A stretch of 64,000 nt of DNA from Microbotryum violaceum (GCA_001244265.2 LN717261.1:2309591-2373590); one strand, 5' to 3'; counted from the stretch's first letter, positions 30,273-32,524 are shown. The notes: a model not told the origin generated them from the letters alone. Numbers and translations are program-made.

Positions 30273-32524
30273 ATGGCCTCTTCCACCGAACAAGACGAAT
30301 ACGGTGACTACGAAACCGCGCTCAAGACGCTCGTCGATCAATCGCCCGGTCCTAACCAAGTCAAGAACGGACCTTCGACGACGGGGCGCGTGCACGTGCA
30401 CGGCGAAGAACTTGAACAAGGCCAATTGAACGTTCATGCTCCGGCGGCGGAGGGTACGACGCACAAGTGGCTGAGCAGATTTGTGCCAAAGTTGGAAAGG
30501 TGAGTTCAGCGGTTTCATGGAGCCGAAATGGGTGTGGGGAGGGAGGCGTCGTCGTTTAGAATGCCGAGTCCGTGACCGCCGCAGCGTACACGTGGAGCAT
30601 GTGGGGCTGCACCGTTGTCAGCTCACTGCAGCAGGGCCGTTTGTTCGTATGCTGACAAGCGGAAGATTGGGCGGCCCGAGCGTGAAAAGAATATAACAAA
30701 CATTGAAGTGATCGTCTACTGATATCTTCTTTTCCGGCTGTGATCGCACAGTGTAAGTCCGCGTCCCATCTTTGATTCGACAAACGCCCGGCGCTCCGCT
30801 CGATTTCGAGCTTCCAGGACGTATTCGTATTCGTTACCAACATAAATCGAAAGAGCTATCTAATACAAGCTTCTCCAAGTGGAGATGTAATTCCTCTTGA
30901 CCACCCCGCTAACATCAACTTTCCCACGTCCAAACCCCATCTACAGCTCGCCTCGAAAGAACATTTCGGCAACTTGGTCGCCACGGCTCGAGGCGAGAAC
31001 CCACCCAAGATCTGGGAATCGATGCCGATATACGTCCGTCTAGGAATGCAAGCCCTTTACCACGGTCGAGAACAAGCCCATCTCTTAGCGAACAAGAGAG
31101 TCGAATCATTCCTCCGAGAACAATCGATCAAACAAGGCGAATATTACGGTTCTCCTCAAGGAGCCTTGCAACAGATTCAACAATTTGTCAAGACGTATTC
31201 GACCAATACGCGATGTCTTTTACAACCGAATTTGGGGGATTATAGGACCTTTAACGAGTTCTTTTATAGGAAATTGAAAGAGGGGGAGAGGAAGGTTGCG
31301 GCGGAAGGGGATGAGCGGGTTGTGAGCTCGGCGGCGGATTGTCGGTTAACCGTGTTTCAGTCTGTCGAGTTGGCAAAGGAGTATTGGATCAAGGTGAGCT
31401 GGTGACTGCTGCACACATGAGGAAACTGAGGTCGCAGTCGGCTGATCTATTGTGCCGTCGAATACAGGGCCAACAATTTACCCTAGCCAACCTTTTCCAA
31501 GACGAAGAAATGGCCAAACAATTCAATAGTGGCGAGGTTGCCATCTTCCGACTCGCTCCGGCCGATTACCATAGGTTCCACTCGCCTATCAAGGCTGTCG
31601 TTGGGCAGAAGAAACATATCGAGGGGCAATATTATACGTGAGTCATCCGAAGGGAGAGAGGTAAGATGGTGCGGAGGAGCTATGCTGATTTCGTGCTGGA
31701 ATCGATCGGCGTGCGCAGCGTCAACCCCGTGGCCGTGAACGAGGATCTCAACGTCTTTACCGAAAAGTGAGCCAACGTCCTGAACCAAGGTTAGATTCGG
31801 TTTCATTGGGGTTCTGACCACTCTCTACTATGTTCCTTAACCGGCTGTCATAGCAAACGAGATGGTACGGAGGTGGCAGCACTCGAACAATCCGTTGGCG
31901 AGATCGAGCTGCCAATCAGCTGACCCCTTTCTGCTTGGGCATTCAGTCACTCTTTTGAAAATGCCTGATGAAGGCTCGACTCCCAGAAACGTTGCGTTCG
32001 TTCAAATCGGCGCTATGCTGGTAAGCGAACTACCTCAACCGGAAGCGTTTCTGAAGGGCATCGGGCTCACACTCTCGAAACTTCGCCTCCACCATTCAGG
32101 TCGGGAGCATCGTACAAACGGTCGCAGAGGGCGATCAAGTCGCGCATGGAGGTGAACTAGGATATTTCGGTACGTTTTCAAGTTGGAAACAAGCGATGGC
32201 CACCACTGAGTTTGGGCTCCAATCTCGGGACCGAAACCGCCCTGCACAAATTGATCACGACCTTGGGTCACACGCACAGCTTATGGCGGTTCGACTGTCC
32301 TGTGCGTCTTCCCGGCTGGTCAAGTGCATTGGGATGAGGATCTATTACGTAACTCGAAGGAGAAGATGGAGACCGCCGTCAAGGTGAGTAGTAGTGTGAG
32401 AACTGAGAAAGATGGCGGGGGGGGATAGCAGTGGGGCGCCGCCACCTCCATGCGCTAACTTTGTATTTTCCCCACATTTTTTTCGAATCCGCAGGTCGGT
32501 GAACAGATTGGACGATTCGTTTGA
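30273..32524 (+). CDS. Phosphatidylserine decarboxylase (short type II, Psd2-like, no C2 domains seen)
   Basis: YRTFNEFFYRKL, SAADCRL, FRLAPADYHRFHSP, YYTVNP, IGAMLVGSI and the FAYGGSTV autocleavage motif; includes predicted 1-nt and 11-nt microexons. Confidence 0.92.

What the first reader, a model, noticed from the sequence alone, without database searches (positions are those of the whole stretch)
30500..30946. Single-nucleotide microexon (T30752) in the phosphatidylserine decarboxylase gene
Seen: exon 1 ends in phase 2 (...TTG GAA AG|GTGAGT at 30500), while the next large exon starts in phase 0 (CTACAG|CTC GCC at 30947), so direct splicing is out of frame. Inside the apparent 447-nt intron lies ACTGAT (branch point), a pyrimidine tract, then GCACAG|T|GTAAGT: a complete acceptor and a perfect donor one base apart. 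Including the T gives AG+T = Ser and KLESLASKEHFGN in frame. The flanking introns (252 and 194 nt) are longer than most in this window. Known: 1-nt exons are rarely reported (for example Arabidopsis APC11), and fungal stwintrons use similar consecutive splicing; the stwintron reading here (donor GTGTAA) would not restore the frame. Inference: obligatory two-step splicing, and skipping would switch the enzyme off by frameshift.
Basis: partly seen in the sequence, partly recalled or inferred. Interest (0 to 1): 0.85.

Follow-up and report, generated by a model that had tools for sequence, protein, structure and literature searches.

The report
Real one-base exon in fungal gene
A gene of the anther-smut fungus Microbotryum really does contain an exon only one base long; gene predictors miss it, related yeasts appear to share it, and a few other one-base exons are already published.

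Summary
Observation and interpretation both hold. The window is Microbotryum lychnidis-dioicae; the gene is MVLG_05395, a phosphatidylserine-decarboxylase-family protein.

- **Transcript evidence:** Spliced contigs from two public runs (X6, X7; one study) join 30499 to 30947 with exactly one extra letter, T. T30752 is the only AG|T|GT in the 447-nt interval.
- **Intermediate:** One X6 contig keeps intron 1 but joins 30752 to 30947.
- **Protein:** The resulting 393-aa protein aligns without a gap at the junction to 105 of 120 homologues. The reference model uses a 25-nt exon (30622-30646) that these contigs lack.
- **Conservation:** Metagenome contigs of two other Microbotryomycetes-like fungi have the same layout at the same codon, AG|G|GT. 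Other lineages carry only the upstream intron, only the downstream intron, or neither. The one-base exon therefore looks old; outside the window this rests on sequence alone.
- **Novelty:** One-base exons are published for Arabidopsis APC11, Fusarium CYP621A and 13 Coprinopsis genes. This is a new, well-supported member of a known kind.

The parts
30273..30499 (+). Coding exon 1 (227 nt, ends in phase 2 with ...GAA AG). It encodes the conserved N-terminal stretch ...HKWLSRFVPKLE.
   Evidence: X7 record 14 covers 30225-30499 and X6 record 9 covers 30188-30499. The W-L...VP-x-x-E motif is shared with the homologues.
30500..30751 (+). Intron 1 (252 nt, GTGAGT...CACAG), phase 2. This is the 'a' position.
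   Evidence: It is skipped in the X6 and X7 contigs (table 5). A CTGAT branch-like motif lies at 30719-30723, and no AG lies between it and 30750-51.
30752..30752 (+). One-nucleotide exon (T). It is the third base of the codon AG|T = Ser76.
   Evidence: table 5c: a single T lies between 30499 and 30947 in X6 and X7. table 5: a 30752->30947 joint in X6; this is the only AG|T|GT in 30500-30946.
30753..30946 (+). Intron 2 (194 nt, GTAAGT...CTACAG), phase 0. This is the 'b' position.
   Evidence: The joint 30752->30947 has GT..AG ends. CTAAC lies at 30909-30913.
30947..31393 (+). Exon 3 (447 nt), starting LASKEHFGN...
   Evidence: It is 100% identical to P0003.
30622..30646 (+). 25-nt 'exon' of the public gene model (encodes SLQQGRLF). 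It is not part of the transcript seen.
   Evidence: Located. It is absent from the spliced X6 and X7 contigs. It gives an 8-residue insert that none of the 105 gapless homologues have.
31394..32524 (+). Rest of the gene.
- Exons: 31468-31637, 31719-31766, 31854-31864 (an 11-nt microexon), 31947-32020, 32100-32169, 32280-32383, 32495-32524 (includes the stop codon).
- Introns: 74, 81, 87, 82, 79, 110 and 111 nt.
   Evidence: Joints table 5. Boundaries were refined. The joined CDS is 1182 nt = 393 codons plus stop.

Best explanation
T30752 is a genuine, constitutively included one-nucleotide exon of the Microbotryum lychnidis-dioicae phosphatidylserine-decarboxylase-family gene MVLG_05395.

Two ordinary GT-AG spliceosomal introns lie one base apart. 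One is in phase 2 (30500-30751) and one is in phase 0 (30753-30946). Each has its own donor, branch-like motif and acceptor. Each is recognised by intron definition and removed in a separate splicing reaction. This leaves T as the third base of a Ser codon and keeps the conserved N-terminal exon in frame with the catalytic part.

The acceptor of intron 1 and the donor of intron 2 touch, so the two introns are probably not committed at the same time (inference). The one partly spliced form seen has the downstream intron gone first.

The arrangement is probably old. It combines a widespread phase-0 intron with a phase-2 intron one base upstream, and it appears to be shared by other Microbotryomycetes lineages (inferred from DNA only).
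For: **Shown**
1. The sequence anatomy is exactly as described.
2. X7 has a 1096-nt contig covering 30225-30499 and 30947-31391 and further exons. X6 has a contig at depth 128.8. Both join 30499 to 30947 with one letter T between, and have no other differences in the exons (tables 1, 5, 5c, 8). The same contigs splice the gene's other seven introns at GT..AG.
3. T30752 is the only AG|T|GT in the interval. The two other AG-N-GT sites carry C.
4. X6 record 10 (310 nt) runs unbroken from 30470 to 30752 and then continues at 30947.
5. A DNA-like contig of X2 (depth 210) matches 30100-31220 with 0 differences, so no base is missing from the assembly at either exon edge.
6. With T included, the 393-aa protein aligns with no gap or insert at the junction to 105 of 120 homologues. 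Another 11 lack the region. The 4 with inserts are the three Microbotryum annotations and one rotifer protein.
7. Exon 1 is conserved coding sequence, so the frame must carry across.

**Inferred**
8. Loci L036-L038 are identical to each other here. They have exon ...GAG AA|GTGAGT, a 50-nt intron, CACAG|G|GTACGC, a 308-nt intron, then CAG|CTT GCT. AA+G gives Lys, the commonest residue in that column (36 of 105).
9. L032 has ...CA|GTACGT, a 56-nt intron, CCAG|G|GTGGGT, a 143-nt intron, then CACAG|CTC. In both L036-38 and L032 this is the only AG-N-GT in the interval.
10. L024-26 and L041 have only the phase-2 intron. L048, L068 and L043 have only the phase-0 intron. Rhodotorula-like L021 and L027-29 have neither.
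Against: - X6 and X7 are Logan contigs, not raw reads. Their run type is not on record as RNA, and both come from one study. That they are transcript-derived is my inference, from their spliced form, their uneven depth and the low-depth intron-retaining contigs.
- The intermediate contig has only 27 letters on its short side. This is below the 31 the tool asks for before counting a bridge.
- Contigs drop rare variants, so a minor T-less isoform or the other intermediate cannot be excluded.
- X2 may not be independent of the assembly.
- For L032 and L036-38 there is no transcript evidence. A second protein search found only exon-level fragments.
- Intron 1 of L032 has no CTRAY motif.
- The gene tree leaves the Microbotryomycetes lineages as a polytomy, so 'ancestral' is a parsimony argument.
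- No genomic DNA of named relatives could be fetched.
Confidence: 0.93

Rival explanations
1. The public gene model is right: a 25-nt exon (30622-30646, AG|...|GTATGC) restores the frame and adds SLQQGRLF.
For: It is in the reference protein P0003 (401 aa). It has AG and GT borders and restores the frame.
Against: None of the spliced contigs of X6 or X7 contains it; they carry one T instead. It gives an 8-residue insert absent from 105 of 120 homologues. M. saponariae and M. intermedium annotations carry different, unrelated inserts at the same spot, which is the mark of predictors patching a frame problem.
Confidence: 0.02
2. There is no microexon. The frame clash is an assembly error or a real frameshift (pseudogene), and the T in the contigs has another source, such as a non-templated base or a T with non-canonical borders.
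For: A one-base discrepancy is the commonest kind of sequencing error.
Against: DNA-like contig X2 and the intron-retaining RNA contig X6 record 10 match the window with 0 differences over both exon edges. Neither base next to the splice sites in the DNA is T: 30500 is G and 30946 is G. The 30752->30947 joint places the T. The gene is otherwise intact and spliced.
Confidence: 0.01
3. T inclusion is a regulated switch: under some conditions the T is skipped, giving a frameshifted, decay-prone mRNA that turns the enzyme off.
For: Skipping T gives a stop at codon 108. The juxtaposed splice sites make skipping mechanistically easy (inference).
Against: No T-less joint was listed in either run. The T-containing joint has about the depth of the exons: 128.8 against 107.6 for exon 1 in X6, and one contig at 29.2 in X7. 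Only two samples of one study were seen, and contigs hide minor forms.
Confidence: 0.1
4. It is a nested (stwintron-like) or recursive (zero-length exon) splice rather than an exon.
For: An acceptor and a donor lie back to back, as at recursive splice sites, and removal is stepwise.
Against: In both of those kinds nothing from inside the intron stays in the mRNA (definition recalled). Here T30752 stays (table 5c). Neither intron's splice site needs the other's removal to be formed.
Confidence: 0.02

Closest known systems
One-nucleotide exon of Arabidopsis APC11 (Guo and Liu 2015, PMC4674806; abstract and three passages read)
   Same: A single base between two GT-AG introns is required for the frame, and the earlier annotation was wrong. 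The authors also argue that the two introns must be removed one after the other. They cite the potato invertase 9-nt exon, where the second intron goes first. That is the order suggested here.
   Different: It is in a plant and the base is A. It was tested by mutagenesis in protoplasts; nothing was tested experimentally here.
One-nucleotide exon (AG|G|GT) of Fusarium CYP621A (Nelson and Syed 2026, PMC12940212; abstract, Results and Discussion read)
   Same: It is a fungal gene. It shows out-of-phase exon borders, a longer-than-usual intron, conservation across orthologues, and support from public reads.
   Different: It is an ascomycete P450, the base is always G, and conservation is within one genus. 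The authors propose rescue of a one-base deletion by a cryptic AGGGT. Here each flanking intron position also occurs alone in other lineages, which points instead to two separate introns one base apart.
13 one-nucleotide exons in the Coprinopsis cinerea long-read annotation (PMC12230235; one passage read)
   Same: It is a basidiomycete, the exons are transcript-supported, and omitting them breaks gene models.
   Different: I could not see the supplements, so I do not know whether the orthologous gene is among them.
Stwintrons and recursive splice sites (recalled, not looked up here)
   Same: Acceptor and donor signals lie back to back inside what looks like one long intron, and removal is stepwise.
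   Different: Those leave no internal base in the mRNA. Here one base stays.

Membership tests
One-nucleotide spliceosomal exon | A single genomic base directly preceded by an acceptor AG and directly followed by a donor GT, each intron having its own donor or acceptor at the far end | tested here: met
   CACAG|T|GTAAGT at 30747-30758, GTGAGT at 30500, CTACAG ending at 30946.
One-nucleotide spliceosomal exon | The mature transcript carries exactly that base between the flanking exons | tested here: met
   tables 5 and 5c: T lies between 30499 and 30947 in X6 (depth 128.8) and X7 (depth 29.2; shorter side 255 letters). Caveat: these are contigs, the run kind is not on record, and there is one study.
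One-nucleotide spliceosomal exon | The base is needed for the reading frame, and the product matches homologues without gap or insert | tested here: met
   Phase 2 meets phase 0. Without T there is a stop at codon 108. 105 of 120 homologues are gapless at the junction.
One-nucleotide spliceosomal exon | The genomic sequence at the exon edges is correct | tested here: met
   X2 contig (depth 210) has 0 differences over 30100-31220. X6 record 10 has 0 differences over 30470-30752. X2 may not be independent of the assembly.
One-nucleotide spliceosomal exon | Partly spliced forms show that each intron is removed on its own | tested here: inconclusive
   One form was seen (intron 2 removed, intron 1 kept; X6 record 10), with 27 letters on the short side. 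The converse form was not listed.
Stwintron / recursive splice site | No nucleotide from inside the composite intron remains in the mRNA | tested here: not met
   T30752 remains (table 5c). The definition is recalled.
Phosphatidylserine decarboxylase family (Pfam PF02666) | A match to the family profile above the curated cut-off | tested here: met
   P0003: PF02666, 191.1 bits against a cut-off of 22, covering profile positions 1-198 of 198. TIGR00163: 119.8 bits against a cut-off of 111.75.
Phosphatidylserine decarboxylase family (Pfam PF02666) | The self-cleavage Gly-Ser-Thr motif that makes the pyruvoyl group (motif recalled), and enzyme activity on phosphatidylserine | not testable with these tools
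   ...FAYGGSTV... is present in the protein and G-G-S-T is nearly invariant in alignment A1. Substrate and activity are untested.

The most novel reading that the evidence does not exclude
The one-base exon was not a recent accident. It arose before the Microbotryales, a Leucosporidium-like lineage and a Phenoliferia-like lineage separated, when a phase-2 intron came to lie one base upstream of a much older phase-0 intron. That older intron is also present alone in a Phaffia-like contig (L068) and in L043, whose nearest proteins are basidiomycete. The exon has been kept since, with its base free to change (T in Microbotryum, G elsewhere). One or both introns were lost in Sporidiobolales and in L048. 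It is spliced in a fixed order, downstream intron first.
Probability: 0.45. Interest if true: 0.65.

Novelty: new member of a known kind. Interest (0 to 1): 0.5.

Why it matters
**Annotation.** The reference protein of M. lychnidis-dioicae carries a spurious 8-residue insert. Those of M. saponariae, M. intermedium and Phenoliferia psychrophenolica carry spurious inserts of 19-38 residues at the same spot. Predictors that cannot place a one-base exon invent sequence instead.

**Mechanism.** This is a natural substrate in a culturable fungus, with transcript-derived support, for asking how a spliceosome handles an acceptor and a donor that touch, and in which order.

**Evolution.** The same codon carries the upstream intron alone, the downstream intron alone, both, or neither in related lineages. 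That is a rare chance to see how an ultra-short exon is made and kept. It argues against the 'rescued deletion' origin proposed for the Fusarium case.

Tried and rejected
- **Run type.** The look-up of sequencing runs listed no holder on record as RNA. I used the spliced form of the X6 and X7 contigs instead.
- **Whole genome.** None is held for this window. I could not test whether either intron is a repeated element genome-wide, look for a paralogue, or survey other one-base exons. Within the window, neither intron has another copy; only 13-nt chance matches turned up.
- **Relatives' DNA.** Genomic DNA of named relatives (M. saponariae, M. intermedium, Leucosporidium, Meredithblackwellia, Phenoliferia) could not be fetched with these tools. 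Only their annotated proteins were used.
- **Transcript support for L036-38.** A second protein search with the L038 exon gave two exon-level fragments (P0124, P0125) that end at the same acceptor, and one 65%-identical full-length protein. None confirms the L036-type junction at transcript level.
- **Cargo in the long introns.** Rfam at E<=1 over 30000-32800 gave 0 matches. ORFs inside the introns are 59-95 aa with no support. The long introns show no recognisable cargo.
- **Earlier scan notes.** There were none for this place, this protein or these words. A search for 'microexon' returned cases in other genomes only.
- **Literature.** 'Microbotryum' with 'microexon' gave 1 paper, on Rhizoctonia solani by its title (listing only; not opened). 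'Microbotryum' with 'micro-exon' gave 0. A looser search was uninformative.
- **Supplements.** Supplementary files of the Coprinopsis and Fusarium papers were not opened. They may list genes that bear on novelty.
- **Motif count.** The YAGNGTRAGT count as evidence was rejected as barely above chance. The three other matches were printed but not analysed.

Full report
**What the window is.** The translation of 30947-31396 is 100% identical to NCBI protein MVLG_05395 of Microbotryum lychnidis-dioicae p1A1 Lamole (P0003, 401 aa). That protein matches Pfam PF02666 (phosphatidylserine decarboxylase) at 191 bits over the whole profile. It also matches NCBIfam TIGR00163 above its cut-off. The closest relatives are the same protein of M. 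saponariae, M. intermedium and many Microbotryomycetes yeasts (149 proteins at E<=0.001 among 620 candidates, best 120 listed).

**Checking the observation.**
- Every coordinate in the finding is right. The ATG is at 30273 and exon 1 ends at 30499 after 227 nt, in phase 2 (...GAA AG).
- GTGAGT starts at 30500. CACAG ends at 30751. T is at 30752. GTAAGT is at 30753-58. CTACAG ends at 30946. The next exon opens in phase 0 at 30947.
- Direct joining is out of frame and gives a stop at codon 108.
- Branch-like motifs sit at suitable distances: CTGAT at 30719-23 and CTAAC at 30909-13.
- The motif YAGNGTRAGT is not itself remarkable: 4 in the window against 1.12 expected, and 2 of 100 shuffles reach 4.

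**Transcript-derived evidence.** The look-up of sequencing runs listed 7 runs, none on record as RNA. I laid X1, X2, X6 and X7.

X6 and X7 belong to one study but two samples, and match the window with no differences in the exons. Their contigs join across every intron of the gene at GT..AG. Exon depth is far above intron depth. I therefore take them as transcript-derived (inference).

Both runs join 30499 to 30947 with exactly one letter between, and it is T (table 5c). X6 has depth 128.8. In X7 the joint lies in a 1096-nt contig with 255 letters on the shorter side. No T-less joint and no joint to the annotated 25-nt exon (30622-30646) was listed.

T30752 is the only AG|T|GT in the interval; the other two AG-N-GT sites carry C. 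The bases next to the outer splice sites are G. The T can therefore only come from 30752 under GT-AG rules.

X6 record 10 (310 nt, depth 8.17) runs unbroken from 30470 through intron 1 to 30752 and then continues at 30947. That is a partly spliced form with intron 2 removed and intron 1 kept. Its short side is only 27 letters, below the tool's 31-letter rule, so I count it as supporting, not decisive. It cannot be an assembly chimera of pre-mRNA and mRNA, since those share only AGT at that point (my reasoning). The converse half-spliced form was not listed, but contigs drop rare variants.

A DNA-like contig of X2 (depth 210) matches 30100-31220 without a difference, which argues against a missing base in the assembly.

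**Protein-level check.** Joining the ten supported exons gives 1182 nt, or 393 codons plus stop. I aligned this protein with the 120 homologues.
- 105 of 120 have no gap or insert at the junction (...E-x-L/V/I-A...).
- 11 of 120 lack the region.
- 4 of 120 have inserts: the three Microbotryum annotations (8, 34 and 38 unrelated residues) and one rotifer protein.
- MAFFT placed the Phenoliferia insert just before the junction column, so that protein (P0033) counts among the 105 gapless ones.
- The junction column is variable: K 36, R 15, N 13, D 11, T 10, E 8, S 4 and others.

Exon 1 encodes conserved sequence (W-L..VP..E), so the frame must carry across. Three different 'fixes' in three annotated Microbotryum species suggest the same frame problem in all of them. 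I could not see their DNA.

**Relatives (DNA only).** A scan of metagenome contigs with alignment A1 gave 330 pattern matches. Of these, 187 were confirmed as relatives and the best 80 were kept. I classified the printed translations and DNA by eye. 49 loci are informative at the junction.

| State at the junction | Loci | Notes |
|---|---|---|
| Contiguous | 37 | Some are probably cDNA-derived contigs. L021 and L027-29 are genomic, because they have an intron elsewhere, and are Rhodotorula-like. |
| Both introns, one-base exon | 4 (L032; L036-38) | Two organisms; L036-38 are identical here. |
| Only the phase-2 intron | 4 (L024-26, L041) | Sporobolomyces-like. AC|GTTCGT ... CAG|A or T. |
| Only the phase-0 intron | 3 (L048, L068, L043) | L048: GAG AAG|GTCAGT ... 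CAG|CTT. L068 is Phaffia-like; the nearest proteins of L043 are basidiomycete. |
| Phase-2 intron one codon downstream | 1 (L051) |. |

The two organisms with both introns read as follows:
- **L036-38:** ...GAG AA|GTGAGT, a 50-nt intron with CTGAC, CACAG|G|GTACGC, a 308-nt intron, then CAG|CTT GCT. AA+G gives Lys.
- **L032:** ...CA|GTACGT, a 56-nt intron, CCAG|G|GTGGGT, a 143-nt intron, then CACAG|CTC. CA+G gives Gln.

In each of these the site is the only AG-N-GT in the interval. Intron 1 of L032 lacks a CTRAY motif.

I built a quick one-gene tree of 60 rows, with pseudo-proteins stitched from tblastn matches. It gives a Microbotryomycetes clade (SH-aLRT 97) containing an unresolved set of lineages:
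- Microbotryum;
- L038 with Leucosporidium (93);
- L032 with Phenoliferia (100), together with Meredithblackwellia (99);
- L048;
- Sporidiobolales, which include L024/L041 and L027.

The Phenoliferia annotation also carries a 19-residue insert just at this spot. The most economical reading is an old phase-0 intron, a phase-2 intron added one base upstream early in the class, and later losses. That is a parsimony inference on a polytomy, without transcript data outside the window.

**Mechanism.**
- *Shown:* two GT-AG introns, one base kept, and one half-spliced form.
- *Inferred:* each intron is recognised on its own (intron definition). The acceptor of intron 1 and the donor of intron 2 abut, so the factors binding them cannot sit there together and the two reactions are successive.
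- Neither order changes the other site's sequence context. The base before the donor is T and the base after the acceptor is T either way. The order is therefore kinetic or steric, not a matter of creating a site.
- The form seen suggests downstream first. The Arabidopsis paper cites this order for the potato invertase 9-nt exon (PMC4674806, passage read).

**Comparison with what is known.** One-base exons are in print in three places:
- Arabidopsis APC11 (PMC4674806).
- Fusarium CYP621A, called there the second case and the first fungal one (PMC12940212).
- Thirteen genes of the basidiomycete Coprinopsis cinerea (PMC12230235, passage read).

Searches for 'Microbotryum' with 'microexon' or 'micro-exon' gave one paper, on Rhizoctonia solani by its title (listing only), and none. 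So this is a new member of a known kind. It adds a likely class-wide conservation, and lineages that carry each flanking intron alone. That pattern fits 'two introns one base apart' better than the 'cryptic site rescues a deletion' origin proposed for Fusarium.

**Verdict.** The public gene model is wrong at this point. Interest is moderate: the case is neat and well supported, and useful for annotation and for splicing mechanics, but it is not a new kind of thing.

Noticed in passing
window 31854-31864: The same gene has a second microexon of 11 nt (CAAACGAGATG), between introns of 87 and 82 nt. The spliced contigs of X6 and X7 include it (tables 5 and 5c). The public model has it too (NKRDV in P0003).
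   Followed up: partly
window 31221-31688: DNA-like contigs of X1 (depth 3.1) and X2 (depth 210), from two studies, join 31220 to 31689. This skips 468 nt that hold the end of exon 3, all of exon 4 and part of intron 4. The X6 and X7 contigs cover this stretch. It looks like a deletion allele or copy of this gene in other isolates.
   Followed up: no
window 32200-32203 (inside the intron 32170-32279): Contigs of X2, X6 and X7 leave the window at 32203 with the same unrelated sequence. A second X2 contig re-enters at 32200 and is more diverged beyond: 13 differences and 6 gapped letters over 32200-32700. The 4-base overlap would fit an insertion with a target-site duplication in another allele (tables 7 and 8).
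   Followed up: no
P0004, P0005, P0033 (annotated proteins of M. saponariae, M. intermedium, Phenoliferia psychrophenolica): All carry unrelated inserts of 19-38 residues exactly at the junction. Part of the M. saponariae insert resembles a read-through of the 3' part of the window's intron 2. These are likely annotation artefacts caused by the same one-base exon.
   Followed up: partly
L048:1238-1258; L051:2860-2925; L036:242-284: This short stretch of the gene is crowded with intron positions in relatives. L048 has a 21-nt exon (LIPGIEK) between two introns. L051 has a phase-2 intron one codon downstream. L036 has a 43-nt exon ending at the phase-2 donor (the L036 exon limits were read by eye).
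   Followed up: partly
window 30517-30696 (+) and 30556-30843 (-): ORFs of 59 and 95 aa lie inside the two long introns. There is no Rfam match in 30000-32800. Nothing suggests that the long introns carry a gene.
   Followed up: partly
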